The position numbers were made by a program, and so were the translations under genes. A stretch of DNA of 64,000 bases from Escherichia coli (GTDB lineage Bacteria; Pseudomonadota; Gammaproteobacteria; Enterobacterales; Enterobacteriaceae). Every line of letters begins with the position of its first letter. The first letter of the stretch is position 1. The DNA lies in assembly GCF_046105845.1 (NCBI RefSeq), contig NZ_CP151004.1; one strand, given 5' to 3'. Of this stretch, positions 8,904-19,590 are shown one piece after another. The notes under the pieces are model-generated. The model searched no databases and was not told the origin of the DNA. It saw only the letters and a list, made by a program, of their open reading frames with translations.

Positions 8904-9569
8904 TTAACGCAGGCTTTGCGGCAGCAGTTCATCTACCAGTACATTCAGCCAGTGGTGTAGCCCCCACCAGACGCCCGCCAGTAGCAGCGCCAGTGTTACC
9001 AGCCAGAAAAACGGCGAATGCAGCAAAGGGTGCTGACGGGTGGATAACGGCACGTTCAGTACCGCCGTTTCCGGCAGCACGCCAAATGGCGCGACCTGCC
9101 CGTTGAGCGTCGAAATAAGCTGGTCGCGCTCCGGGGCCACCGGATCCTGATAACGCCCGCGAAATCCCAGCAGCAGGACACGGTGAAAGCAGGTCAGCAC
9201 AGCCTGTGCAGGTGCGGGCTCCTGCAACACCTGCTTCATCCGTTCGTACAGCAGCTCGCCTGCCTGCAGGGTGTTGAAGAAATGCGACTGGAGTGGATCC
9301 TTCATCCAGATGGCCTGACCGTCGTCCATGCCGCCACGGCTCAGGACCGTTTCGTCCAGCAGGGCGCACTGTGCGTAAGTTATGTGCTCCACGCTCTCCC
9401 GGCTGAACCCGGCATCTTTCAGGCGTTCGCGGACCCCTTCCACCTGCCGCTGGCAGTGGCGATACAGCTCCATACCGTGACGCACGGTGGTTCCCTGACG
9501 CAGTTCCACCACCGTCAGAAACGTGTCGCGCAGCAGCGCGTCGATATTGATATCCGTCTCTTTTTTCAT
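8904..9569 (-). CDS. tssL: T6SS membrane-complex protein TssL (DotU family)
   Basis: 221-aa ORF with a DotU-like cytoplasmic domain and a C-terminal transmembrane segment (FFWLVTLALLLAGVWWGL). Start overlaps the tssK stop by 4 bp. Confidence 0.85.
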   Translation of the reverse strand: MKKETDINIDALLRDTFLTVVELRQGTTVRHGMELYRHCQRQVEGVRERLKDAGFSRESVEHITYAQCALLDETVLSRGGMDDGQAIWMKDPLQSHFFNTLQAGELLYERMKQVLQEPAPAQAVLTCFHRVLLLGFRGRYQDPVAPERDQLISTLNGQVAPFGVLPETAVLNVPLSTRQHPLLHSPFFWLVTLALLLAGVWWGLHHWLNVLVDELLPQSLR

Positions 9570-10903
9570 GTGCGCAGCACCGCAAACAGTTCAGGTTTCA
9601 GGTCGCCCATGGTTCCCGGCGCATAAATCATGCAGCACCCGGACTCCAGCATCGATTTGGCCGCGTCACTGTGCATATCCAGCGCAAAATACTGGTTCTC
9701 CAGTCGCAGCGGCAGCGCCGCCGGAACTGAGGTCAGTGGCACCAGTGAAACACCGTTCAGCGCCACATTGATAAGCAGCGTGACGTCATCAGGCGCACCG
9801 ATTTTGCAGACCAGCGGTAGCTGGTGCAGTACCTGATGTGCCGGCAGAGAGGAACGAACGGACAGGTAAAAATCGGCCTCTTCCCGCAGGCGCGGATCGT
9901 GCAGGTCTGCTTTCCAGCGGTTGCCCGGCAGGGACGCCAGCTCCAGTGCGATCACCCGTGACGGCAGGCTGGCTTCCAGCAGTTCGCTGAGCAGGGAGAA
10001 CAGTGGCGGAAAGACGGTGGACGGCGATTCGTGGACATAGGGCGGAACGGCGCTGACGTTATGTTCAAGGGAAAACGTCAGCAGCGCTCCGGCAAGCCTC
10101 GCCAGCTCCCGCCAGACCAGTTCGGGATGAACTGCCGGGTAGCGCAGGAAATCTCTCAGTACCGGCTCAGCAGAATTCAGCGCGTTAAGCAGCCAGAACA
10201 GGGAGACATCGGCGATGGCGAAGTCCGCCATACGCTGGTTGCTTTCCCGGCGCATCGCCATCAGACGCTGACATTTGGCCCGTAGCTGCAACAGCAGCGT
10301 GTCCAGACGCTGTACCAGTCCGTCATGGGCGTTAAACGCCAGTAACGGTGGAATGTAATCGCCGTCCTGCGTCCAGTTGCCCTGAACATCCCGCACCAGA
10401 CGCGCCAGTGGGCAGGTGATGTAATCCTGATTGTTATCATGGACAAAGCGCAGGGACAGCGCATGACGCTCAACGGCCATATCTTCACTGTCACTGCCGT
10501 AGATATCCTGCACCTTTTGCCATTCCTGACGATAGCGTAGCGGTCTTTCAGTCTGCTCACCCTGACCGAGATTACCGCCGTTACCATGGGCAAGCGGCAG
10601 CGCCAGCAGAACAACCGCGCTGTCGTTCGTCAGCGCGTGCAGATCGCAGGCGAGAGGCAGAACATCGCTCACATCTGAATCGATCAGCGTGCCATCAGCA
10701 AAACGCAGGCGTACTGCCTGCGTTTTCAGCTTTCCGGACGTCAGGGCATCGCGGTCAAAGAGCACATTCGCGATCCCCCACGGATGACGAATACAAAGTT
10801 GCGCAATGCTGTCATTGCTGAACGCTTCCCAGCGGGCCTGCTGCTGAAACTGCTGAGAGGACAGGAATGTCCCCTCAGCCCACAGTGGTCGATGAATTTT
10901 CAT
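9566..10903 (-). CDS. tssK: T6SS baseplate protein TssK
   Basis: 445-aa ORF with a typical TssK N-terminus (MKIHRPLWAEGTFLSSQQFQQQ), positioned between tssC and tssL. Confidence 0.85.
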   Translation of the reverse strand: MKIHRPLWAEGTFLSSQQFQQQARWEAFSNDSIAQLCIRHPWGIANVLFDRDALTSGKLKTQAVRLRFADGTLIDSDVSDVLPLACDLHALTNDSAVVLLALPLAHGNGGNLGQGEQTERPLRYRQEWQKVQDIYGSDSEDMAVERHALSLRFVHDNNQDYITCPLARLVRDVQGNWTQDGDYIPPLLAFNAHDGLVQRLDTLLLQLRAKCQRLMAMRRESNQRMADFAIADVSLFWLLNALNSAEPVLRDFLRYPAVHPELVWRELARLAGALLTFSLEHNVSAVPPYVHESPSTVFPPLFSLLSELLEASLPSRVIALELASLPGNRWKADLHDPRLREEADFYLSVRSSLPAHQVLHQLPLVCKIGAPDDVTLLINVALNGVSLVPLTSVPAALPLRLENQYFALDMHSDAAKSMLESGCCMIYAPGTMGDLKPELFAVLRT

Positions 10904-10920
10904 ATCACACCACTTCCCGG

Positions 10921-12459
10921 TCAGGCTTTCGCTTTCGGCATCTGGGAAACCAGTGACAGGTTGATATCCATCCCTTCAATCTGGAAATGCGGCACGGCAA
11001 AGAGTCTGACGCGGAAGAAGCCCGGATTGTCCTCAATATCTTCCACGATAACCTTGCCGTCGCGCAGCGGGTGAGACGCCTGCAGTTCATCACCCGGATC
11101 GGTCATCTCCGTCACCAGTGTGCGGATCCAGGTGTTCAGTTCCAGTTCCAGTACGCGGCGGTCTTTGGTGGTACCGATATTCTCGCGCTGGATGATTTTC
11201 AGGTAATGCGCAATGCGGGACAGCAGGAAGATATAGGGTAAACGGGCGTTAATACGGCTGTTGGCAGTGGCATCAGCGGTATCATACAACGCCGGTTTCT
11301 GGGCAGAGTTTGCCGAGAAGAAGCAGGCGTAATCGCGATTCTTATAATAAGAGAGCGGAATAAAGCCAAGGTTGGCAAATTCAAATTCGCGGGTTTCCGG
11401 GATCATCACTTCGGACGGAATTTTGACCTGATTGCCGGTGCCGAGATCGTAAAGATGGATGGGCAGATCGGTCACTGCGCCACCTGCCTGTGGACCACGG
11501 ATCTGCACACACCAGCCATTATTCACAAAGCTCTTCACCATATTGGCGGCAAAAGCGAACGAGGCGTTTGTCCACAGGTACTTTTCGTGATCCGGACCTT
11601 TGACTTCTTCCACATAGTTAAAGCTGCGTACCGGCACCGTGTCCGGCCCGTACGGCAGACGCCCCAGTACGCGCGGCATCACTAATCCCACATAGCGACT
11701 GTCATCCGTATCGCGGAACGATTTCCATTTAATATATTCTGCGCGGTCAAAGTAGTTGCCGATATCTTTAATCGCGGCGACTTCTTCCATCGAATTTTTA
11801 AGGAAGAATTTCGGCCCGACAGAACCTATAAATGGCATATGGGAAGCGGCAGACACTCTGGAAATATTGCGCAGCAGGGCAATATCCTGCGGGCTGTTAT
11901 CAAATTCATAGCTGGAAATTAATGAGGCAACAGGTTCGCCACCCGGCGTATCGTACTCCTGAATGTATGTATGACGATATAAACCGCTCTGAATGATTTC
12001 CGGGGAGTCGTCGAAATCCTGACGCAGATGCTCTTTGCTGATATCCAGCAATTCAATTCTGACATTTTTGCGAAAATCAGTGCGCTGTACGACGAACCAT
12101 GTGCCGCGCCACAGCGACTCGACTTTCTGGAATTCAGGATGGTGCATTACCGCATCAAGCTGCTTACTGATTTTCTGATCCAAATCGTCGATATGAAAAT
12201 CCAGCAGGCTCTTGTCGAGCTTGACCACGTTCTCGCCTGATTTCGCCAGACAGGAAAGCAGAACGTGAATCGCCGCTGTCACGCGCTCATCGGGTGAGGC
12301 ATCCGCCAGTGTTTCGCTGTTTTGCCATAAATCTATTTCCTGAATGGAAGACACCGGGGTTAAATTAATTTTATCAAACAGGGACTGATAAACGCCGCCG
12401 GACTCAGTGGTGGTCAGTGTTGCAGTTTCAGAGGTGGCATGTTCTTGTTGTACAGACAT
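10921..12459 (-). CDS. tssC: T6SS contractile sheath large subunit TssC (VipB)
   Basis: ORF of 512-514 aa with TssC-like sequence. I place the start at the third Met (12459) because AAGGAA sits 6 nt upstream; the ORF track starts at 12465. Confidence 0.9.
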   Translation of the reverse strand: MSVQQEHATSETATLTTTESGGVYQSLFDKINLTPVSSIQEIDLWQNSETLADASPDERVTAAIHVLLSCLAKSGENVVKLDKSLLDFHIDDLDQKISKQLDAVMHHPEFQKVESLWRGTWFVVQRTDFRKNVRIELLDISKEHLRQDFDDSPEIIQSGLYRHTYIQEYDTPGGEPVASLISSYEFDNSPQDIALLRNISRVSAASHMPFIGSVGPKFFLKNSMEEVAAIKDIGNYFDRAEYIKWKSFRDTDDSRYVGLVMPRVLGRLPYGPDTVPVRSFNYVEEVKGPDHEKYLWTNASFAFAANMVKSFVNNGWCVQIRGPQAGGAVTDLPIHLYDLGTGNQVKIPSEVMIPETREFEFANLGFIPLSYYKNRDYACFFSANSAQKPALYDTADATANSRINARLPYIFLLSRIAHYLKIIQRENIGTTKDRRVLELELNTWIRTLVTEMTDPGDELQASHPLRDGKVIVEDIEDNPGFFRVRLFAVPHFQIEGMDINLSLVSQMPKAKA

Positions 12460-12517
12460 CAGCATTTCCTTTTCAGTGATCCTTTCTTCTCCGGTTTAAC
12501 CTGAATATCACTTCGGG

Positions 12518-13018
12518 TTAAACGTTCTCCTGCGGCGCAATTTTCGCCAGTTCATCACGCAGTTCTGAACTGAGCGTTGGGTCTTTCAGGATATTTTCCA
12601 GTTCACGGCGAAACGTTGCGTTATCCAGCAGATTGGATTTGAGGTCACGTAATAAATTGCGCATAGCGAGTAATACACGAAGCTGTGGGATATTTTTTGC
12701 TACCTGTTCGGGTTCAAAATCTTTCAGGCTTTTAAATTCAAGCGCGATATTTTGTTCATTACCGCTTCCGCTTAGTGTGTCTTCTACTGTTAAATTAACC
12801 GCAGGCGAAAACTCAGCCATGACACTGTTGAAGTTGTTTTTATTGATATCAATCTTGTCCCGTTCGGACAGCGGACGTTGCTCTTTTCCGTTACTGTAAT
12901 CGCCAACAGCAAGAAGCTTGAGGGGGAGTTCAACTTTCTTTTTAGCATTGCCTGTATGCAGGTCAAGCTTGATATTTACACGAGCGGCGGGAACTTCATT
13001 CTGGAAACTGTCGGCCAT
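12518..13018 (-). CDS. tssB: T6SS contractile sheath small subunit TssB (VipA)
   Basis: TssB-like sequence (ARVNIKLDLHTG...ELPLKLLAVGDY). I place the start at the internal Met (MADSFQ) preceded by GAGGAAAAGG; the ORF track extends to 13045, which remains possible. Confidence 0.85.
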   Translation of the reverse strand: MADSFQNEVPAARVNIKLDLHTGNAKKKVELPLKLLAVGDYSNGKEQRPLSERDKIDINKNNFNSVMAEFSPAVNLTVEDTLSGSGNEQNIALEFKSLKDFEPEQVAKNIPQLRVLLAMRNLLRDLKSNLLDNATFRRELENILKDPTLSSELRDELAKIAPQENV

Positions 13019-13045
13019 ATCCTTTTCCTCATCATCCACTTTCAT

Positions 13046-13657
13046 CAGGAGTGCGAGATAATCACGCGTGTGACTATCCCATAAGGATTATGACTATATA
13101 AAGATAAAAAACAAGAACAAATATAGAGACAGAAATATCATTTATAATTGCTGTGAATAATTATACGTCTATCTCGAAATTATATTATTTGAGAACATCA
13201 TCCCATTTTTAGGCGTTTTAGCTGTTAAGCAGACGGTTAAACCTATACATGTGTATACATGCATGAAAATACTGAAAAACAACAAGATCCACATCACAAA
13301 AATTTATTTTTCAGAATGACGGAATTCATGTTTTTTTCGCAAATTATTCACCATGCAAATATTTAATTTTTTTCATGCTTAATAAAATATGATGTTTACT
13401 CATATGCCAACTATGCTACCTGTTGACGCCACACACCAATACACAAAACAAATGCAACAATCACAAACCATAAAAATAAAATATGATTTAGCTATAGTTA
13501 TCAACAAAATAACATCACCACCATTTATAATTTTACTATTGATAAAAAATAGAAACTACGATAAATAATAAAGCATTACTTACCAATCATTCTTTTAAAT
13601 GATTCTGGAATGCAGTCTCCACTGCATAATTGGGCTGTGTTTTTTAAGGAGCAAGTA
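13046..13657. promoter_or_regulatory. 612-bp strongly AT-rich divergent intergenic region upstream of tssB (minus) and an unknown gene (plus); presumed T6SS operon promoter region
   Basis: Unusually long, AT-rich non-coding stretch between divergent genes. One GATC (13286-13289). A GATAATCAC element at 13066-13074 resembles half a Fur box. No promoter hexamers could be assigned with confidence. Confidence 0.5.
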
Positions 13658-14599
13658 ATGCATACCATTCCTTATTATAGCAATAACACCTCTATGCCTG
13701 TCTGGGTTACTGTTAGCGAAGCAACTGATATTATCAATAAGTATACTAACAGCCATATTAAAGATTGTGACTTATGGCGTTATGCACTTTATGGTCACTT
13801 ACCTCTTTCAATTTATTTCCAGTCACAAATAAAGCTTAGAAAAATTTGCCTGAGCGGCGATGAAATCATGCTGGATAACATCGAAGAAAGCATTATTGAG
13901 AAGATAGCTCAGTTAAGTGATACGTGCATATACAATGGGAAAAATAAAATAATAAAGACAGAAGGTGACTATATTTCCCCAGAGCATCATATTATTGATA
14001 CACCATTAATTGGTCATGAATATATTGTATTACAAAGATTACTTGCTCACTCATTAAAAATACCAAAACCTATTACAGGACAGTATAATTCTCATTATGG
14101 TGTTGTCGTCCGTGAAAATGGAATAATTTATCAGGTCTTCGAATCAACTACACTGGAAAACAGAATAACCCAGCGCCTTCGCCATCTTTCAATCCCCGTT
14201 GCAACATACTTTTACGAATCAACAAAATCCCAGGATCTCAAACAGGCAGGAACCCGGTATTTCCCGGTTTATCATTTTCCTGACGATGCCTGGTTCGTTA
14301 TCAAACGCACTGCTCTTGAGCAATTCATAAATACTTTTCTCCCTCCCACTCATAAAAATACCCCTAAAAATGGAACCCGCATTTCTACACCGCTATCACG
14401 ATTTCTCTGGCTAGCGTGTAAGCACAATCATGATATTAGCGCACTGATGGGGCACCCCTACAAACTCCTCTCCGTGTTCGAAGAATGGGCCCGCTCCGAC
14501 GGTATCACTGAACGACTAAATGGAGATACGCTGAAAACCGCACTGGAACGCGGTTCTCCGGTTTTAGCCTACCGTAACTCCGAATTAATGAAATCCTAA
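13658..14599 (+). CDS. hypothetical protein (313 aa), function unknown
   Basis: Long ORF. ATG at 13658 is preceded by AAGGAG at good spacing; the ORF track begins further upstream at 13610. I do not recognise a family. Transcribed divergently from the T6SS operon. Confidence 0.6.
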   Translation: MHTIPYYSNNTSMPVWVTVSEATDIINKYTNSHIKDCDLWRYALYGHLPLSIYFQSQIKLRKICLSGDEIMLDNIEESIIEKIAQLSDTCIYNGKNKIIKTEGDYISPEHHIIDTPLIGHEYIVLQRLLAHSLKIPKPITGQYNSHYGVVVRENGIIYQVFESTTLENRITQRLRHLSIPVATYFYESTKSQDLKQAGTRYFPVYHFPDDAWFVIKRTALEQFINTFLPPTHKNTPKNGTRISTPLSRFLWLACKHNHDISALMGHPYKLLSVFEEWARSDGITERLNGDTLKTALERGSPVLAYRNSELMKS

Positions 14600-14699
14600 C
14601 TTAGAGTCCAGAAATCCTTACTTAGAGGTCTGCTGCTTTCCTTCGGTAGGTCTGATGATGTTGAATTGACTAGCACATCATCAACTACCGGAGGATAAA

Positions 14700-14885
14700 A
14701 TGACGTCACAACGATTTCTGCGGCTGGCACAGGTTATGGATAAAACCGGACTGAAACGCTCACAGGTCTATGCTTATATGAAAACAGGGGATTTCCCAAA
14801 ATCCGTCAAAATTGGCCCGTCCAGCGTAGCATGGCTGGAATCGGAAATTGACGAATGGATCAATACAAAAATAAATAACCGCTAA
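14700..14885 (+). CDS. AlpA-family phage/island transcriptional regulator
   Basis: 61-aa ORF (MTSQRFLRLAQVMDKTGLKRSQVYAYMKTGDFPKSVKIGPSSVAWLESEIDEWI) matching the small AlpA/MerR-like HTH family. GGAGG SD. Confidence 0.8.
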   Translation: MTSQRFLRLAQVMDKTGLKRSQVYAYMKTGDFPKSVKIGPSSVAWLESEIDEWINTKINNR

Positions 14886-14924
14886 TGTAGTATTCTCATT
14901 ATTAGTTTGTTTGAGGTCATTAAT

Positions 14925-15719
14925 ATGAACGATGATCACGGTATTCTTATGCCTGTCGCACTAAATCAGCTACGGGCATTTGATTTAAATCCACGCCTTA
15001 CCAAAAATCCAGAATATGATGAAATTAAAGAATCGATTCGCAACCGCGGGCTGGATTATCCGCCACAAATAACACAACGTCCGGGAGAATCTTTTTATAT
15101 TATTGCCAATGGAGGTAATACCCGGCTGGCAATACTCAACGAGTTATGGCTGGAAACTCACGATAAAAAATACTGGAATATTGTCTGTCATTTCTGGAAG
15201 TGGCATACAGACTGGAGCATTGAAGAAGGTAATTTACACTGCCTGCTTGGTCATCTCGTAGAAAATGATAAACGCGGTTCACTGACATTTATTGAACGGG
15301 CATTAGGGGTTCAAAGTGCAATAAACCTGTATCAAAGTATCCGGGGAAGCTCACAAAGAGATCTGGTACAAATGCTCTGTCAGGCGGGATATCCAGTATC
15401 CACCACGAAACTAAGTATTATGTCCGCGACTATCACATTTCTTTTACCCTATATTCCGGAAGCACTTTACGGTGGTCTGTCGAGACGTATTATCGATAAA
15501 TTGCTGGCACTTCGTTCCAATACGCTAAAATTCTGGGACAACTTCTGCCAGACGTTGCCTCCCGAAAAGGAACAGCAACTCCCTCTATTTGACGATATTT
15601 TTGCTATGGCCCTGACTCCCTTTAATGAACCGATGACAGGTTTTTCACTGGAGCATATTCAGGATGAGCTGACAGGGATTATCAGCAAGACACTTAATGT
15701 GGACTCTGCCCAGCGATAA
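14925..15719 (+). CDS. ParB/sulfiredoxin-like N-terminal domain protein (putative)
   Basis: N-terminal region (LNQLRAFDLNPRLTKNPEYDEIKESIRNRGLDYPPQI...IIANGGNTRLAIL) resembles the ParB N-terminal domain pattern. Start taken at ATG 14925 (GAGG 8 nt upstream); the track ORF starts at 14907. Confidence 0.5.
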   Translation: MNDDHGILMPVALNQLRAFDLNPRLTKNPEYDEIKESIRNRGLDYPPQITQRPGESFYIIANGGNTRLAILNELWLETHDKKYWNIVCHFWKWHTDWSIEEGNLHCLLGHLVENDKRGSLTFIERALGVQSAINLYQSIRGSSQRDLVQMLCQAGYPVSTTKLSIMSATITFLLPYIPEALYGGLSRRIIDKLLALRSNTLKFWDNFCQTLPPEKEQQLPLFDDIFAMALTPFNEPMTGFSLEHIQDELTGIISKTLNVDSAQR

Positions 15720-15916
15720 CGGGATGGCCAGATTTGCGCCGGTGATATATTCAATGCCTCCGCAATCAACCGCTCACCTTTCGGCCAGTGGCTCCTGAGT
15801 GCATTTGCCAGCGTACCGGAGGCCAGCCCGGCTTTGCGGGAAACCGCTGCCAGCGACGTTCCCTGTTTTTTCAGTGCCGCGATAATATCTGCGGGGTGCC
15901 AGTCCTGCTGCATCAT
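15659..15916 (-). CDS. Ner/Nlp-family small DNA-binding protein
   Basis: Sequence from the internal Met (MMQQDWHPADIIAALKKQGTSLAAVSRKAGLASGTLANALRSHWPKGERLIAEALNISPAQIWPSRY) resembles Ner/Nlp (SfsB-like) regulators. ATGA overlap with the integrase stop; GGGAGGG SD. Confidence 0.7.
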   Translation of the reverse strand: MMQQDWHPADIIAALKKQGTSLAAVSRKAGLASGTLANALRSHWPKGERLIAEALNISPAQIWPSRYRWAESTLSVLLIIPVSSS

Positions 15917-17137
15917 ACTGCCCTCCCACAAACCAGCCGTTCGGACGGGATACCACATACACGCTGGCTCCACCACGCCATCACGTCGGTTCTCTGCTCA
16001 AGATAGGTCGAGCGGTTATAAGCGGCGCGCGTCTGATTAGTATCCGCATGAGCCAGTACAGCTTCTATCACATCAGGGGAAAATCCGGCCTCATTCAGCG
16101 TGGTGCTACCCAGCGCCCGGAAACCATGTGACACCAGCTCCCCGCAATACCCCATACGCCGTAGTGCCTTATTGACCGTTTCGCTATTCATTGGTTGCGA
16201 GGGCTTAACCCGACCCGGAAACAGGAACGGCGAGTGTCCACTTATCGGTTTAAGTTGCTCCAGTATCCACAGCATTTCATCAGTCAGGGGCACCAGATGC
16301 TCACGGCGTTTTTTCATACGCTCAGCCGGAATAGTCCATAGCTTTTTCTCCGTATCAATCTCACGCCACATGGTGCCTGACGCTTCTCCGGGGCGCACCA
16401 GCGTCAGCAACTGCCACTTAATCAGATAACGAGTCATCAGCGATAGATTGGTGGTTTCAATCCGCTGTACCAGCTCCGGCAGGCGTTCCGGGCGGATAGA
16501 CGCCATATGCTGTTTTTTCGGCTTCTCAAAGACCTTACCGATGGTCGAGGCTGGATTCGCATCAAGCAGGCCGGAATTGACAGCAAATACCATCACTTCG
16601 TTGATACGCTGGGTTAGACGACGCAGGGTTTCCAGCGCACCTCGTGCCCGGACCGGCTCAAGGGCGGCAATCAGAGTATGTGCTTTCAATTCAGCTACCG
16701 GCATCTGTCCGATTGACGGAAGAACATCCCGTTCCATCGAACGCCAGATATCATCTGCATGCACTTCTGAAATGCCACTGGTCTTTTTAATAGCAAACCA
16801 TCTTGTCGCCACATTGATAAACAGGCTGTCGATTGCTTTCTTTTCCTGTTCTGCGGCTTCCTGCTCCAGCTTTTTCGGATCTACACCCTGAGCCAGCAGA
16901 CCAAGATATTCATCATGTACTGCGGGCAGCAGCAAGAGTTACAGCAGGATAATAACCCAGCGTGATATTGGTACGGGCAGTGGAGTTTGGACGCTGGTAA
17001 CGAAAACGCCAGATTTTCTTCCCGGAAGTACGAACAGAAAGCGTCAGACCATGCCCGTCAGGCAGGTCGTAATCTTTATCGGCGGGTTTTGCTTTTTGTA
17101 CTGCGGCAGCAGTCAGCAGGCGGCGGGTAATGGTCAT
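15913..17137 (-). pseudogene. int: P4-type tyrosine integrase interrupted by a frameshift (N-terminal 74-aa ORF plus 340-aa C-terminal ORF in another frame)
   Basis: ORF 16913-17137 encodes a typical P4-integrase N-terminus (AVQKAKPADKDYDLPDGHGLTL...GYYPAVTLAAAR). ORF 15913-16935 encodes the rest, including the catalytic region (HGFRALGSTTL...LAHADTNQT...Y). The frames overlap at 16913-16935 next to a GGG run (16924-16926). Could also be a homopolymer sequencing error. Confidence 0.75.
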
Positions 17138-17220
17138 GATTTACTCCTCAGTTATCGTCAATGTTAAGCGACGAGGCTGACGTAATATCCTGTTCCACCA
17201 CCACTTTTTCAGCCATAAAC

Positions 17221-17280
17221 TCAGAAATGGCCTACGAAATTTGTCCTCTGGTCGCATAGGCCATTTCATGGGCCATTTTG
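17221..17280. repeat. cluster of short repeats AAATGGCCYA (one direct, two inverted) between integrase and aspV
   Basis: AAATGGCCTA at 17224-17233; TAGGCCATTT at 17256-17265; GGGCCATTTT at 17268-17277. Adjacent palindromes GGATACAGGAGTATCC (17285-17300) and AATTTGTCCT/AGGACAAATT (17236-17245 / 17304-17313). Confidence 0.45.
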
Positions 17281-17319
17281 CACCGGATACAGGAGTATCC
17301 AGCAGGACAAATTCAGACG

Positions 17320-17357
17320 AAAAAAAACCGTATCACCTTGATAGCGATACGGTTTTC
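17320..17357 (-). terminator. rho-independent terminator downstream of aspV
   Basis: On the minus strand: CCGTATC-loop-GATACGG hairpin followed by a run of eight T. Confidence 0.65.
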
Positions 17358-17398
17358 TTACTTCACAGGATGTATAAAAACACCCTGAAATTTGTAAG

Positions 17399-17475
17399 TG
17401 GCGGAACGGACGGGACTCGAACCCGCGACCCCCTGCGTGACAGGCAGGTATTCTAACCGACTGAACTACCGCTCC
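17399..17475 (-). tRNA. aspV: tRNA-Asp (GUC)
   Basis: Reverse complement matches E. coli tRNA-Asp (GGAGCGGTAGTTCAGTCGGTTAGAATACCTGCCTGTCACGCAGGGGGTCGCGGGTTCGAGTCCCGTCCGTTCCGCCA). Position next to dnaQ identifies it as aspV. Confidence 0.97.
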
Positions 17476-17503
17476 GCGTTGTGTTCCGTTGGGAACGAGG
17501 CGA

Positions 17504-17532
17504 ATATTACGGATTGCCTCGTCCTTCGTCAA
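17504..17532 (-). promoter_or_regulatory. putative aspV promoter (-35 TTGACG, 17-bp spacer, -10 TAATAT)
   Basis: On the minus strand TTGACG (17527-17532) and TAATAT (17504-17509), about 30 nt upstream of the tRNA 5' end, with an A/T-rich stretch further upstream. Confidence 0.55.
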
Positions 17533-17607
17533 CGATTTTTCTCATCTTTTGAATCGTTTGCTGCAAAAATCGCCCAAGTCGCTATTTTTAGCGCCTTTTA
17601 CATGTAT

Positions 17608-18339
17608 TTATGCCCGCCAGAGGCAGCTTCCGCCCTTCTTCTGCACCAGATCAAGACGGGCTTCATGAGCTGCAAGCTCTTCATCTGTCGCAAAAACAAC
17701 GCGTAACTTACTTGCCTGACGTACAATGCGCTGAATTGTTGCTTCACCTTGTTGCTGCTGTGTCTCTCCTTCCATCGCAAAAGCCATCGACGTTTGACCA
17801 CCGGTCATCGCCAGATAAACTTCCGCAAGGATCTGGGCATCGAGTAATGCCCCGTGCAGCGTTCGTTTACTGTTATCTATTTCGTAGCGGGCACATAACG
17901 CATCGAGGCTGTTGCGTTTACCGGGAAACATTTTCCTCGCCACCGCAAGGCTATCGGTGACCTTACAGAAGGTATTGGTCTTCGGAATATCGCGCTTAAG
18001 CAACGAAAACTCGTAGTCCATAAAGCCGATATCGAACGCTGCGTTATGGATCACCAGCTCCGCGCCGCGGATATAGTCCATGAACTCATCGGCTACCTCT
18101 GCAAACGTGGGCTTATCGAGCAAAAATTCATCGGCAATACCATGTACGCCAAAGGCTTCCGGATCCACCAGCCGATCGGGTTTGAGATAAACATGGAAGT
18201 TATTGCCCGTCAGGCGACGGTTCACCACTTCAACGGCACCAATCTCAATGATCTTGTGGCCTTCATAGTGCGCACCAATCTGGTTCATACCGGTGGTTTC
18301 GGTATCGAGAACGATCTGGCGTGTAATTGCAGTGCTCAT
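17608..18339 (-). CDS. dnaQ: DNA polymerase III epsilon subunit (3'-5' proofreading exonuclease)
   Basis: Translation matches E. coli DnaQ as I recall it ([20 protein letters not shown]...). Start trimmed to the known Met; the track ORF begins 3 codons upstream. Confidence 0.96.
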
Positions 18340-18403
18340 AGCGGTCATTTATGTCAGACTTGTCGTTTTACAGTTCGATTCAATTACAGGAAGTCTACCA
18401 GAG

Positions 18404-18871
18404 ATGCTTAAACAGGTAGAAATTTTCACCGATGGTTCGTGTCTGGGTAATCCTGGACCTGGGGGTTACGGTGCTATTTTACGCTATCGTGGACGCGAAA
18501 AAACTTTTAGCGCTGGCTACACCCGCACCACCAACAACCGTATGGAGTTGATGGCCGCTATTGTCGCGCTGGAAGCGTTAAAAGAACACTGTGAAGTCAT
18601 TCTGAGTACCGACAGCCAGTATGTCCGCCAGGGGATCACCCAGTGGATCCATAACTGGAAAAAACGTGGCTGGAAAACAGCAGACAAAAAACCAGTAAAA
18701 AATGTCGATCTCTGGCAACGTCTTGATGCTGCGTTGGGGCAGCATCAAATCAAATGGGAATGGGTTAAAGGCCATGCCGGTCATCCAGAAAACGAACGTT
18801 GCGATGAGCTGGCTCGTGCCGCAGCGATGAATCCCACACTGGAAGATACGGGCTATCAAGTCGAAGTTTAA
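18404..18871 (+). CDS. rnhA: ribonuclease HI
   Basis: 155-aa product from [23 protein letters not shown] matches RNase HI. Divergent from dnaQ as in K-12. The track ORF is N-terminally over-extended. Confidence 0.96.
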
Positions 18872-19590
18872 GCCTGTGGTTTACGACATTGCCGGGTGGC
18901 TCCAACCGCCTGGCGAATTCGTGGCTTGTTTTTACTCTGTTTCATCGGATTTAGCGTTAAAGGAATAGTCCGTTTCCGGGCGACAATAAGTTGTAAGCAA
19001 CCAAGCGCAGGAATATGCGCATTCAATAGTTTTCCACCGTGTTTGTTCCACGGGAGAACGTGGAAACGGCTGGCGTGTAGCACTTCAAAATTCAACAAAG
19101 AGAGCCAGTCCAGCTGCCGCATCAGAGTAAACATCCGGCTGTTATAAGGCGAGGTTTTTCGCAATACCGGCACAAGTTTGCGTAATCCCATTAAACTGAT
19201 GGGATTGAAGCCACTAATCACCAGCCAGCCATCATCAATCAATACCCGATCGGCTTCACGCAATAAACGATGCGGATCGGTGCACCACGGCAATGTATGT
19301 GCCAGTAGACAAACATCAACGGATTTATCGGCAAAAGGAAGATGAAGTGGGTCCGCCTGCACCTGGACGGGCAGTCCTTGCGCAGAAACATTCACTTGAT
19401 GAGAAACCGCGCACGCTTCGCAATTGATTTCTGCGCTTAAATTGCCAATCTTAAGCAGATGAAAACCATACATTTTAGTGAACCACGGGTTGAGCTGGCG
19501 CTCCAGCGCCTTGCGATAAAGCTCTCCCCAGGGCAAATCGCCCCAGCAATCAGGAGCCACGACAGTTTGAGGGACTCTTGCCGGTTTCAT
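18868..19590 (-). CDS. yafS: SAM-dependent methyltransferase YafS
   Basis: Sequence and synteny (convergent 4-bp overlap with rnhA). Start placed at MKPARVPQ. Confidence 0.88.

What the first reader, a model, noticed from the sequence alone, without database searches (positions are those of the whole stretch)
17221..17314. Dense set of short direct and inverted repeats between the integrase start and aspV: possible recombinase or regulator binding sites
Three copies of AAATGGCCYA (one direct, two inverted) lie within 55 bp, flanked by two further palindromes (GGATACAGGAGTATCC and AATTTGTCCT/AGGACAAATT). This is the expected location of arm-type integrase-binding sites and the integrase promoter-operator of a tRNA-integrated element.
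Basis: seen in the sequence. Interest (0 to 1): 0.35.

Follow-up and report, generated by a model that had tools for sequence, protein, structure and literature searches.

The report
Integrase arm-binding repeats beside aspV
The three AAATGGCCYA repeats are almost certainly the docking sites for the N-terminal "arm" domain of the neighbouring P4-type integrase; this layout is already annotated in phage P4, so the finding is real but ordinary.

Summary
The repeats are in the sequence exactly as described. AAATGGCCYA occurs three times in the 64-kb window, all within 54 bp, against 0.34 expected by chance.

They lie 121 nt past the 3' end of aspV and 88 nt upstream of a P4-type integrase gene. 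That gene carries an Arm-DNA-binding domain and is frameshifted in this window.

Every relative with at least 70% identical integrase keeps the same layout, at tRNA-Asp or tRNA-Lys: two direct copies 12 bp apart, an 18-19-nt variable spacer, then one inverted copy. The motif is AAATGGCC in one sub-clade and AATGGGCC in the other, and it follows the integrase N-domain in a natural mosaic.

More distant P4-like integrases at ssrA, and phage P4 itself, have the same geometry with other motifs. The P4 record labels its copies "attP arm sequence repeat". In P4 and in an E. coli ssrA element the doubled motif also sits on the other side of the core.

I conclude these are the P'1-P'3 arm-type integrase sites of attL, and probably also part of int control.

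Neither flanking palindrome has a supported role; only one arm of each overlaps a sequence block conserved in relatives. The far-end (P arm) copies could not be found for this clade, and binding by AlpA is not excluded.

This is a new member of a known kind, of low interest.

The parts
17267..17278 (-). P'1: the tRNA-proximal direct copy of the arm-type repeat. It reads AAATGGCCCATG in int orientation and starts 121 nt after the aspV 3' end.
   Evidence: It is conserved in 11 of 11 clade members.
17255..17266 (-). P'2: the second direct copy (AAATGGCCTATG), exactly 12 bp after P'1.
   Evidence: The 12-bp period is the same in P4, the two ssrA-linked elements and the lysV clade.
17224..17236 (+). 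P'3: the inverted copy (GAAATGGCCTACG on the + strand). It lies 18 nt beyond P'2 and 88 nt before the int ATG.
   Evidence: The flank AAATTTCGTAGGCC is nearly invariant in relatives.
17238..17254 (.). Variable spacer between P'2 and P'3.
   Evidence: The sequence is not conserved in relatives. Complementarity with 17304-17313 is kept in only 59% of cells.
17283..17290 (-). Conserved block GTATCCGG (int orientation), just upstream of P'1. It overlaps one arm of the window-specific palindrome GGATAC/GTATCC (17285-17300). Its role is unknown.
   Evidence: ATCCGG also occurs at the same place in P4 and the ssrA clade. The other arm is not conserved.
17304..17319 (-). Conserved block CGTCTG-nnnn-TGTCC (int orientation), directly after the terminator T-run. 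It contains the AGGACAAATT arm of the 10-bp inverted repeat. Its role is unknown.
   Evidence: CGTCT is invariant in the clade, and TTGTCC recurs in P4 and the ssrA clade.
17320..17357 (-). Intrinsic terminator for aspV carried by the island: AAAACCGTATC...GATACGGTTTT stem followed by a T8 run.
   Evidence: a 12-bp stem kept in all relatives, with a compensating change in Citrobacter. The native tRNA terminator sits beyond attR in L091.
17399..17475 (-). aspV tRNA-Asp(GTC). By analogy with P4-type elements, its 3' end holds the attL core.
   Evidence: In most E. coli genomes similarity stops at the tRNA 3' end.
17184..17212 (-). Candidate weak int promoter: -35 CTGAAA (17212-17207), 17-nt spacer, -10 GATATT (17189-17184).
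   Evidence: The same site is found at the same place in 10 of 11 clade members, plus a one-base -35 variant in Intestinirhabdus L050, with 7-8 of 12 matches. Consensus match only. It was not reported by the stricter scan.
15913..17137 (-). P4-type tyrosine integrase gene, a pseudogene here. A 2-bp deletion just after 16920 splits it into a 74-aa Arm-DNA-binding ORF and a 340-aa ORF.
   Evidence: The gene is intact (408 aa) in E. coli SC418.
14700..14885 (+). AlpA-family gene, a candidate recombination directionality factor of the same element.
   Evidence: Pfam Phage_AlpA, E = 8.6e-26. It is homologous to the AlpA at the far end of the Salmonella ICE.

Best explanation
The three AAATGGCCYA copies are the P'-arm arm-type binding sites (P'1 and P'2 direct, P'3 inverted) of the attL junction of a P4-family integrative element inserted in aspV.

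The proposed mechanism is as follows. The integrase's N-terminal Arm-DNA-binding domain docks on these sites. Its C-terminal domains bind the core at the tRNA 3' end about 120-170 bp away. This bridging builds the intasome needed for excision and, in the attP form, for integration.

Because the sites lie just upstream of int, bound integrase probably also tunes int transcription, as shown for P4 Int, KplE1 IntS and PAI-I536 IntI.

What is shown here is position, conservation, geometry, motif/N-domain co-variation and homology to the annotated P4 arm repeats. Binding, intasome formation and autoregulation are inferred.

In this window the system is probably a relic. The int gene is frameshifted, the element is internally deleted, and no attR is found.
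For: 1. The motif is non-random and unique to this spot in 64 kb.

2. The adjacent gene is a tyrosine integrase with Arm-DNA-bind_3, Phage_int_M and Phage_integrase domains. It lies in the tRNA-then-int orientation.

3. All relatives with at least 70% identical integrases keep the layout. These are Citrobacter, Affinibrenneria, Morganella, Lonsdalea, Salmonella, Intestinirhabdus, E. coli lysV and three tRNA-Lys loci, plus five metagenome contigs. Each has two direct copies at a 12-bp period and one inverted copy 18-19 nt later, about 120 nt from the tRNA end. The spacer sequences diverge.

4. All three copies change together between sub-clades, from AAATGGCC to AATGGGCC. This is independent of the target tRNA.

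5. In the mosaic integrase of L050 the motif follows the N-terminal arm domain. That domain is 83-84% identical to the lysV type. The target tRNA-Asp goes with residues 206-288, which are 93% identical to the aspV type.

6. The ~58%-identical ssrA clade, a second ssrA-linked element with a P4-like N-terminus and phage P4 show the same geometry with other motifs: TTGGTAYACG, TTAGGCACCT and TTGGGGGCA. The period is 12, the DR2-IR gap is 16-20 nt, and the distance from the tRNA end to DR1 is 112-133 nt.

7. The P4 GenBank record annotates exactly these 12-mers as 'attP arm sequence repeat'. It also annotates a second tandem pair on the other side of the core.

8. In E. coli H240 the ssrA element's motif pair recurs 58 nt upstream of the degenerate tmRNA 3'-end copy at its attR. 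The motif is therefore on both arms there.

9. The literature reports P4 Int repressing Pint by direct DNA binding near the start site, and attL/int-promoter overlap as a general paradigm for tRNA-then-int loci (PMC2951348; PMC7286903).
Against: - No P-arm copies were found for this clade itself. The window, E. coli CP076709 and the ~50-kb Salmonella ICE all lack a recognisable attR or a second motif cluster. Two collection scans found only attL-type members.
- Nothing here shows which protein binds. An AlpA gene is present, and recombination directionality factors also use direct repeats about one helical turn apart (abstract of PMC7498355, listed).
- In this clade the repeats do not overlap a recognisable promoter. 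The -10 position used in P4 and the ssrA clade reads CGACCA here.
- Motif/N-domain co-variation is confounded by physical linkage of the sites to the 5' end of int.
Confidence: 0.8

Rival explanations
1. The tandem direct repeats, with or without the inverted copy, are binding sites for the element's AlpA-family protein. AlpA would act as an excisionase (recombination directionality factor) and/or as a transcriptional activator of int.
For: - An AlpA gene belongs to the same element.
- RDF sites are typically direct repeats about one helical turn apart (abstract of PMC7498355, listed).
- P4 Vis binds the attP region (PMC2603039).
- For a doubled motif flanking attP in PICI integrases, the authors left integrase arm domains and AlpA both open (PMC10111431).
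Against: - The same repeats in P4 are annotated as attP arm repeats.
- A 2+3 distribution over both arms with an inverted third copy resembles the lambda-type integrase arm-site pattern (my own knowledge).
- The motif follows the Int N-domain in the L050 mosaic.
- No doubled motif occurs anywhere else in the 50-kb Salmonella ICE, including upstream of alpA. A transcription factor with several targets might be expected to have one there.
Confidence: 0.12
2. P'2 and P'3 matter as a stem-loop rather than as protein sites. The stem-loop could be an RNA attenuator or terminator upstream of int, or a DNA cruciform.
For: - The 11-bp complementarity is kept in 97.5% of cells, and 3 pairs change on both sides.
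- One of these is an apparently independent change in Citrobacter that affects P'2 and P'3 but not P'1.
- A T-rich tract follows the stem.
Against: - P'1 cannot pair in this stem, yet it changes in concert with the other two copies between sub-clades.
- The loop is 18-19 nt, and the fold is only marginally better than shuffles (z = -1.76).
- The terminator scan does not report it, and there is no Rfam match.
- P4 and the ssrA element carry further copies on the other arm, where no such stem can form.
- Any inverted protein site gives the same complementarity.
Confidence: 0.05
3. The repeats are a chance cluster or a remnant of an unrelated repeat element such as a REP or MITE.
For: None beyond the short length of the motif.
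Against: - The expected count in 64 kb is 0.34, against 3 observed within 54 bp.
- The arrangement is conserved across at least seven genera.
- The region matches only 3 of 5426 E. coli genomes, always at aspV.
Confidence: 0.01

Closest known systems
Phage P4 attP arm sequence repeats (annotated in NC_001609.1; Pierson & Kahn 1987 is cited from my own knowledge and via PMC7286903)
   Same: - A tandem pair of 12-mers and one inverted copy lie between the tRNA-derived core and int. The period is 12 bp, the DR2-IR gap is 16 nt versus 18 nt here, and the distance from the tRNA end to DR1 is 112 nt versus 121 nt here.
- The flanking T-run/CGTC/TTGTCC/ATCCGG blocks are shared.
- Both integrases have the Arm-DNA-bind_3 architecture.
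   Different: - The motif differs: TTGGGGGCA in P4 against AAATGGCC here.
- The integrases are only 32-45% identical by segment.
- In P4 the inverted copy abuts the int ATG and the repeats overlap promoter-like hexamers. Here the inverted copy is 88 nt upstream of the ATG.
- P-arm copies are seen in P4 but were not found for this clade.
KplE1 (CPS-53) attL / PintS, with IntS and TorI (Panis et al. 2010, PMC2951348)
   Same: - The order is tRNA then int, with the intergenic region serving as attL.
- Int arm-type P' sites lie in the int upstream region.
- Negative autoregulation is predicted for all loci of this shape.
   Different: - The integrase clade and the motif are different.
- In KplE1 the arm sites overlap the mapped -10 box and RDF sites are mapped. 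Nothing is mapped here.
E. coli 536 PAI I intI promoter (Chittò et al. 2020, PMC7286903)
   Same: A P4-like island integrase that represses its own promoter, with regulation located in the tRNA-int intergenic region.
   Different: That work concerns IHF. No match to the IHF consensus WATCAANNNNTTR occurs in this intergenic region or in its relatives.
Doubled motif flanking attP of helper-embedded PICI integrases (PMC10111431)
   Same: A doubled motif lies about 81 bp upstream and about 132 bp downstream of the attP centre, next to int and alpA. The distance on the int side is comparable here.
   Different: The integrase sub-clade, motif and targets (prophage late genes) all differ. No inverted third copy is mentioned in the passages read.
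Lambda attP arm-type sites P1, P2 / P'1-P'3 (my own knowledge)
   Same: The logic of five sites split two plus three around the core, bound by the Int N-domain.
   Different: The integrase lineage is unrelated beyond the fold, the spacing differs, and lambda int is not preceded by attL.

Membership tests
P4-family attL/attP arm-type integrase sites (P' arm) | The adjacent gene is a tyrosine integrase with an N-terminal arm-DNA-binding domain. | tested here: met
   Pfam Arm-DNA-bind_3 (E = 8.7e-23), Phage_int_M and Phage_integrase on the intact SC418 orthologue. The window's 74-aa fragment still scores 5.3e-17. PDB relatives 3ju0 and 3jtz are N-domains of P4/CP4-like integrases.
P4-family attL/attP arm-type integrase sites (P' arm) | The sites lie between the tRNA-derived core and the int start, with the tRNA preceding int on the same strand. 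| tested here: met
   aspV is at 17399-17475 (-), the repeats at 17224-17278 and the int ATG at 17137 (-).
P4-family attL/attP arm-type integrase sites (P' arm) | P4-like geometry: a tandem pair at a 12-bp period plus an inverted copy 16-20 nt further on, 112-133 nt from the tRNA end. | tested here: met
   The window gives 121 nt / 12 bp / 18 nt. P4 gives 112 / 12 / 16. The ssrA elements give 112 / 12 / 18 and 133 / 12 / 20. The P4 features are annotated in the record.
P4-family attL/attP arm-type integrase sites (P' arm) | The repeats are selectively conserved in orthologous elements, and the motif changes with the integrase clade or N-domain. | tested here: met
   An 11-sequence alignment shows the repeats nearly invariant and the spacer variable. 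AAATGGCC and AATGGGCC separate by sub-clade. The L050 mosaic supports the N-domain link. Other motifs occur in the ssrA clade and P4.
P4-family attL/attP arm-type integrase sites (P' arm) | The same motif is also present on the other (P) arm, next to attR or within attP. | tested here: inconclusive
   No attR or second cluster was found in the window, in E. coli CP076709 or in the Salmonella ICE. The scans found only attL-type loci. The feature is met in the sister ssrA clade and in P4.
P4-family attL/attP arm-type integrase sites (P' arm) | The integrase N-domain physically binds the sites, and they are required for recombination. | not testable with these tools
   This needs EMSA or footprinting and recombination assays.
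Autoregulated int promoter-operator (Panis 2010 paradigm) | The Int sites overlap the RNA polymerase binding site of the int promoter. | tested here: inconclusive
   The best conserved promoter-like site (CTGAAA-17-GATATT, 7-8 of 12 matches) starts 13 nt downstream of P'3. It was not reported by the stricter scan. In the ssrA clade and P4 the hexamers lie inside the repeats.
RDF (AlpA/Xis-type) binding sites | Direct repeats about one helical turn apart, in one arm of att, bound by the element's RDF. | tested here: inconclusive
   The direct repeats have a 12-bp period and an AlpA gene is present. However, there is an inverted third copy, the sister clades have copies on both arms, and no binding data exist.
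Intrinsic terminator / attenuator hairpin | A G+C-rich stem with a short loop, followed by a T run. | tested here: not met
   The loop is 18-19 nt, the scan does not report it, and the fold z-score is -1.76.
Known RNA family (Rfam) | A match to a covariance model. | tested here: not met
   Only the tRNA matches in 16500-18000 at E <= 1.

The most novel reading that the evidence does not exclude
In this aspV/lysV integrase clade the arm sites have moved about 90 nt away from the int start, out of the promoter. They now sit just upstream of a weak promoter. Bound Int could therefore act there as an activator or architectural element rather than as a simple repressor.

A related possibility concerns the frameshifted gene in this window, which still encodes a 74-aa arm-domain-only protein. 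That fragment could occupy the sites as a domesticated regulator or as an inhibitor of recombination.
Probability: 0.07. Interest if true: 0.4.

Novelty: new member of a known kind. Interest (0 to 1): 0.2.

Why it matters
The result assigns a concrete role to a conserved non-coding block next to aspV. It also gives the arm-site motifs (AAATGGCCYAYG and AATGGGCCTAYG) for an integrase clade that carries ICEs, defence islands and T6SS-linked remnants in Enterobacterales.

The shared geometry is two direct copies 12 bp apart plus one inverted copy, about 120 nt from the tRNA end. It gives a simple sequence rule for locating attL arms of P4-like elements and for telling tandem elements apart.

It does not change current understanding of site-specific recombination.

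Tried and rejected
- **attR in the window.** I searched for the aspV 3' end (26-mer with up to 3 mismatches, 14-mer with up to 2) and found only the two tRNA-Asp genes and chance hits.
- **Far end of the E. coli aspV T6SS island (CP076709, 49.5 kb).** There is no tRNA fragment and no second motif cluster.
- **Walk along a Salmonella contig.** I walked about 60 kb to the far end of a ~50-kb ICE that has an 87%-identical integrase. The junction with yafT is AT-rich and holds no tRNA fragment, no motif and no shared 9-mers with attL.
- **E. coli lysV remnant (L091).** It has a 19-bp attR core but no motif in its P arm.
- **Protein searches of phage and plasmid collections.** Nothing exceeded 60% identity.
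- **Motif scans of IMG/VR and JGI metagenomes.** These returned five further attL-type members and many unrelated contexts, but no P arm of this clade. The tRNA-Ser-linked family was followed into one locus and led to an IS, not an integrase.
- **Small ORF 17141-17269 (-), 42 aa.** It is not conserved: a stop appears after 12 codons in Salmonella (read from the sequence), so I rejected it.
- **IHF consensus WATCAANNNNTTR.** No match in any of the 11 homologous regions.
- **The 10-bp inverted repeat AATTTGTCCT/AGGACAAATT.** It is statistically unusual in this sequence but not conserved (59% paired). I treat it as window-specific and leave it unexplained.
- **The P4 papers of Cali 2004 and Piazzolla 2006.** Neither is held in the library.

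Full report
**Observation**

- AAATGGCCYA occurs only three times in the 64-kb window: at 17225-17234 (+), 17257-17266 (-) and 17269-17278 (-).
- The expected number is 0.34, and none of 100 shuffles reached three.
- The two minus-strand copies form a tandem 12-mer, CATAGGCCATTT / CATGGGCCATTT.
- The 10-bp inverted repeat AATTTGTCCT / AGGACAAATT (17238-17247 and 17304-17313) is also present, as is the small palindrome GGATAC-AGGA-GTATCC (17285-17300).
- Perfect inverted repeats of at least 10 bp are far more frequent here than in shuffles: 3 observed against 0.012 expected.
- The 6-bp palindrome on its own is unremarkable, since 40% of shuffles have one.

**Context in the window**

- aspV (tRNA-Asp GTC) lies at 17399-17475 on the minus strand.
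- Downstream of it, on the same strand, comes a strong hairpin with a T8 run at 17320-17357.
- The repeat region follows, and then an integrase gene starting at 17137.
- That gene is a pseudogene. A 2-bp deletion just after 16920 splits it into a 74-aa ORF and a 340-aa ORF.
- The intact 408-aa orthologue in E. coli SC418 has Arm-DNA-bind_3, Phage_int_M and Phage_integrase domains.
- The 74-aa fragment is the arm-binding domain alone.
- Further left lie an HTH_35 gene, a truncated ParB-like gene, an AlpA gene, a 329-aa gene and a type VI secretion cluster.
- The chromosomal flank (dnaQ, rnhA and neighbours) is at most 98.8% identical to 5424 of 5426 complete E. coli genomes.
- The repeat region occurs in only three of those genomes, always next to aspV. 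In two of them ISEc31 has replaced int from position 17212 but left all three repeats.
- In almost all other E. coli genomes similarity stops at the tRNA 3' end. The whole intergenic region therefore belongs to the island.

**What the island is**

- Relatives of the integrase are common in Salmonella and other Enterobacterales.
- In one Salmonella assembly an 87%-identical integrase at aspV heads a ~50-kb integrative conjugative element. It carries TraI_2, ParA, TraG, TraU, TraC, TraD, topoisomerase III and SSB.
- The far end of that element carries a ParB-like gene, AlpA and a 308-aa gene.
- The window's 329-aa, AlpA and ParB-like genes are homologues of those far-end genes: 55% identity for the 329-aa protein, 73% for ParB, and AlpA clearly alike by eye.
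- The window therefore holds both ends of such an element, with the interior deleted.

**Comparative evidence on the repeats**

- I fetched 80 loci encoding relatives of the integrase and further loci by exact protein look-up.
- Every locus with an integrase at least 70% identical keeps the same layout upstream of int. In order, it reads:
  - the tRNA end;
  - a small hairpin;
  - the terminator hairpin and T-run;
  - CGTCTG-nnnn-TGTCC;
  - (G)ATCCGG;
  - two direct motif copies exactly 12 bp apart;
  - an 18-19-nt spacer of variable sequence;
  - an inverted copy embedded in AAATTTCGTAGGCC;
  - about 90 nt to the ATG.
- These loci come from Citrobacter, Affinibrenneria, Lonsdalea, Morganella, Salmonella and Intestinirhabdus at tRNA-Asp. 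They also include E. coli and three loci of one other genome at tRNA-Lys.
- Five metagenome contigs add further examples, one with an integrase identical to SC418.
- The motif is AAATGGCC in one sub-clade and AATGGGCC in the other, and all three copies change together.
- The motif does not follow the target tRNA. Intestinirhabdus L050 sits at tRNA-Asp but has AATGGGCC.
- The L050 integrase is a mosaic. Residues 1-95 are 83-84% identical to the tRNA-Lys type and 66-69% to the aspV type. Residues 206-288 are 93% identical to the aspV type.
- The motif thus travels with the arm-binding domain. Physical linkage of the sites to the 5' end of int weakens this as a proof.

**More distant relatives**

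- The ~58%-identical integrases sit at ssrA and show the same layout with another motif: ATTGGTAYACG, TtAGGTAYACG and an inverted CGTrTACCAAT.
- In the E. coli H240 chromosome this ssrA element is followed by a second ssrA-linked element whose int has a P4-like N-terminus. That element has a third motif, TTAGGCACCT twice and inverted once.
- In the same H240 chromosome the first element's pair TTGGTACACGtttAGGTACACA recurs 10 kb away. It lies 58 nt upstream of a degenerate copy of the tmRNA 3' end, which is that element's attR.
- The motif is therefore on both arms of that att site, two on one side and three on the other.

**The precedent in phage P4**

- The GenBank record of phage P4 annotates 12-mers as "attP arm sequence repeat". 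A tandem pair lies on the far side of the core. A tandem pair and an inverted copy lie between the core and int.
- Read in int orientation, P4 shows TTTTTTCGTCC...GTTGTCCG...ATCCGGATATC, then ATTGGGGGCATA ATTGGGGGCATC, then 16 nt, then ATGTGCCCCCAA ending immediately before the int ATG.
- The measured geometry agrees across all of these:

| Feature | Range |
|---|---|
| Repeat period | 12 bp |
| Gap from the second direct copy to the inverted copy | 16-20 nt |
| tRNA end to first copy | 112-133 nt (121 nt in the window) |

- The repeats of the finding are therefore the counterparts of the P4 P'-arm repeats.

**Mechanism**

- By homology, the integrase N-domain binds these sites while the catalytic domains bind the core at the tRNA end, so assembling the intasome.
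- This part rests on established knowledge of heterobivalent tyrosine integrases (summarised in PMC2951348). It was not tested here.
- A second role in int control is likely:
  - P4 Int represses its promoter by direct DNA binding near the start site (PMC2951348 citing Piazzolla 2006; PMC7286903).
  - IntS of KplE1 and IntI of PAI I536 are autoregulated.
  - Panis et al. predict this for all tRNA-then-int loci whose attL overlaps the promoter.
- In the ssrA clade, -35-like and -10-like hexamers lie inside the repeats: TTGGTA, 17 nt, TATAAT or TATACT. P4 has only a weaker match at the same place, TTGGGG, 17 nt, TTAACT (3 of 6 to TATAAT). Both readings are my own.
- In the aspV/lysV clade the corresponding -10 position is not promoter-like.
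- There, the only conserved promoter-like site is CTGA(A/G)A, 17 nt, GA(T/C)ATT or AATATT. It starts 13 nt downstream of the inverted copy, at 17212-17184 in the window, and matches 7-8 of 12 positions.
- The operator role in this clade is therefore an inference.

**The other elements of the finding**

- The two palindromes are not conserved as palindromes. Complementarity is kept in 59% of cells for the 10-bp pair and 73% for the 6-bp pair. The figure is 97.5% for the pair formed by the second direct copy and the inverted copy.
- One arm of each palindrome overlaps a block conserved across the family (TGTCC; ATCCGG). The function of those blocks is unknown.
- A short palindrome of varying sequence does recur at about the position of the 6-bp one. 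I leave this unexplained.

**Rivals**

- **AlpA binding.** AlpA could bind the tandem repeats, since directionality factors use direct repeats a helical turn apart and AlpA is present. The inverted copy, the two-arm distribution in sister clades, the P4 annotation and the lack of any other doubled motif in the 50-kb ICE argue against this. They do not exclude it.
- **A functional stem-loop.** This is weakly supported by compensatory-looking changes. It fails to explain the concerted change of the first copy. The fold is only marginally stable and is not terminator-like.
- **Chance.** Excluded.

**What could not be shown**

- No attR or second motif cluster exists in any of the places searched:
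  - the window;
  - the complete E. coli island of CP076709;
  - the Salmonella ICE, which I walked to its junction with yafT;
  - the E. coli lysV remnant L091, which has a core repeat but no motif.
- Scans of viral and metagenome collections found no P arm of this clade either.
- The two-arm property is therefore shown only for P4 and the ssrA clade.

**Verdict**

The interpretation as arm-type integrase sites is well supported by homology to a described system. The element in this window is a decayed remnant. The result adds a motif and a clade to a known kind, so interest is low.

Noticed in passing
window 15913-17137 (-): The integrase is a pseudogene. A 2-bp deletion just after 16920, relative to E. 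coli SC418, leaves a 74-aa ORF that is an Arm-DNA-binding domain alone, plus a 340-aa ORF holding the central and catalytic domains.
   Followed up: yes
window 13610-15976: The 329-aa gene, AlpA and a truncated ParB-like gene are homologues of the far-end genes of a ~50-kb aspV ICE seen intact in Salmonella (L084, L095-L101). The window therefore keeps both ends of an internally deleted ICE, placed between aspV and a T6SS cluster. An HTH_35 gene overlaps the end of int.
   Followed up: yes
window 17212; L002 (E. coli CP076709) and E. coli MEW: In two E. coli genomes ISEc31 is inserted at the position equal to window 17212. It replaces int but leaves the three repeats and the terminator intact.
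   Followed up: partly
window 17320-17357: The island supplies a replacement intrinsic terminator for aspV, conserved with a compensating change in relatives. In the lysV remnant L091 the native tRNA terminator sits just beyond the 19-bp attR core at L091 13097-13115.
   Followed up: partly
window 17362-17391: A small hairpin directly after the tRNA 3' end is conserved in all 11 relatives, with changes on both sides of several pairs. Its function is unknown.
   Followed up: no
L094 (E. coli H240, NZ_OL790696; reverse complement 760-11700): Two integrative elements sit in tandem at ssrA, each with its own repeat motif (TTGGTACACG and TTAGGCACCT); the second element's int has a P4-like N-terminus. 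The first element's attR carries the tandem pair 58 nt upstream of a degenerate tmRNA 3' end. The record is filed as a plasmid but is 4.8 Mb long.
   Followed up: partly
L050 (Intestinirhabdus alba) 443-1310: This integrase is a mosaic and is truncated. Its N-domain is of the tRNA-Lys type and residues 206-288 are of the aspV type. It sits at tRNA-Asp with the AATGGGCC motif.
   Followed up: yes
L107 (IMGVR_UViG_3300025890_000012), - strand around 280-790: The sequence looks like a complete attP. A doubled ATTGGCCCACA lies on one side of a tRNA-like core, and a doubled AAATGGCCCACA lies on the other, just before an ORF. That ORF is unrelated to the integrase studied here by tblastn.
   Followed up: no
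L111, L115, L118, L124, L129, L131, L147, L148, L167, L171, L175, L176: Twelve metagenome contigs carry a doubled AAATGGCC(C/T)A motif (mostly AAATGGCCTACA) 44 nt from the 3' end of a tRNA-Ser gene, in the opposite orientation to the arrangement here. The one locus inspected has an IS30-like transposase next to it and no integrase.
   Followed up: partly
L003 (Citrobacter sp. wls619) 208-270: The tRNA-Asp gene next to the island lacks its 3' half. The first 41 nt run straight into island sequence, and ARAGORN finds no tRNA.
   Followed up: no
L087 (Lonsdalea populi) 11689-19587: A CBASS-like operon (patatin, a DncV-like cyclase, E1/E2 and JAB) lies directly after the integrase. About 9 kb away lie a fragment of another arm-binding domain and ssrA/smpB, which suggests a rearrangement between the aspV and ssrA islands. 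L105 has a Kiwa defence pair after its integrase.
   Followed up: no
window 17135-17183: Between the candidate promoter and the Shine-Dalgarno sequence, both sub-clades appear by eye to have a short inverted repeat, of different sequence (GTCG...CGAC against ATCA...TGAT). It could form a 5'-UTR hairpin, but RNAalifold did not predict it.
   Followed up: no
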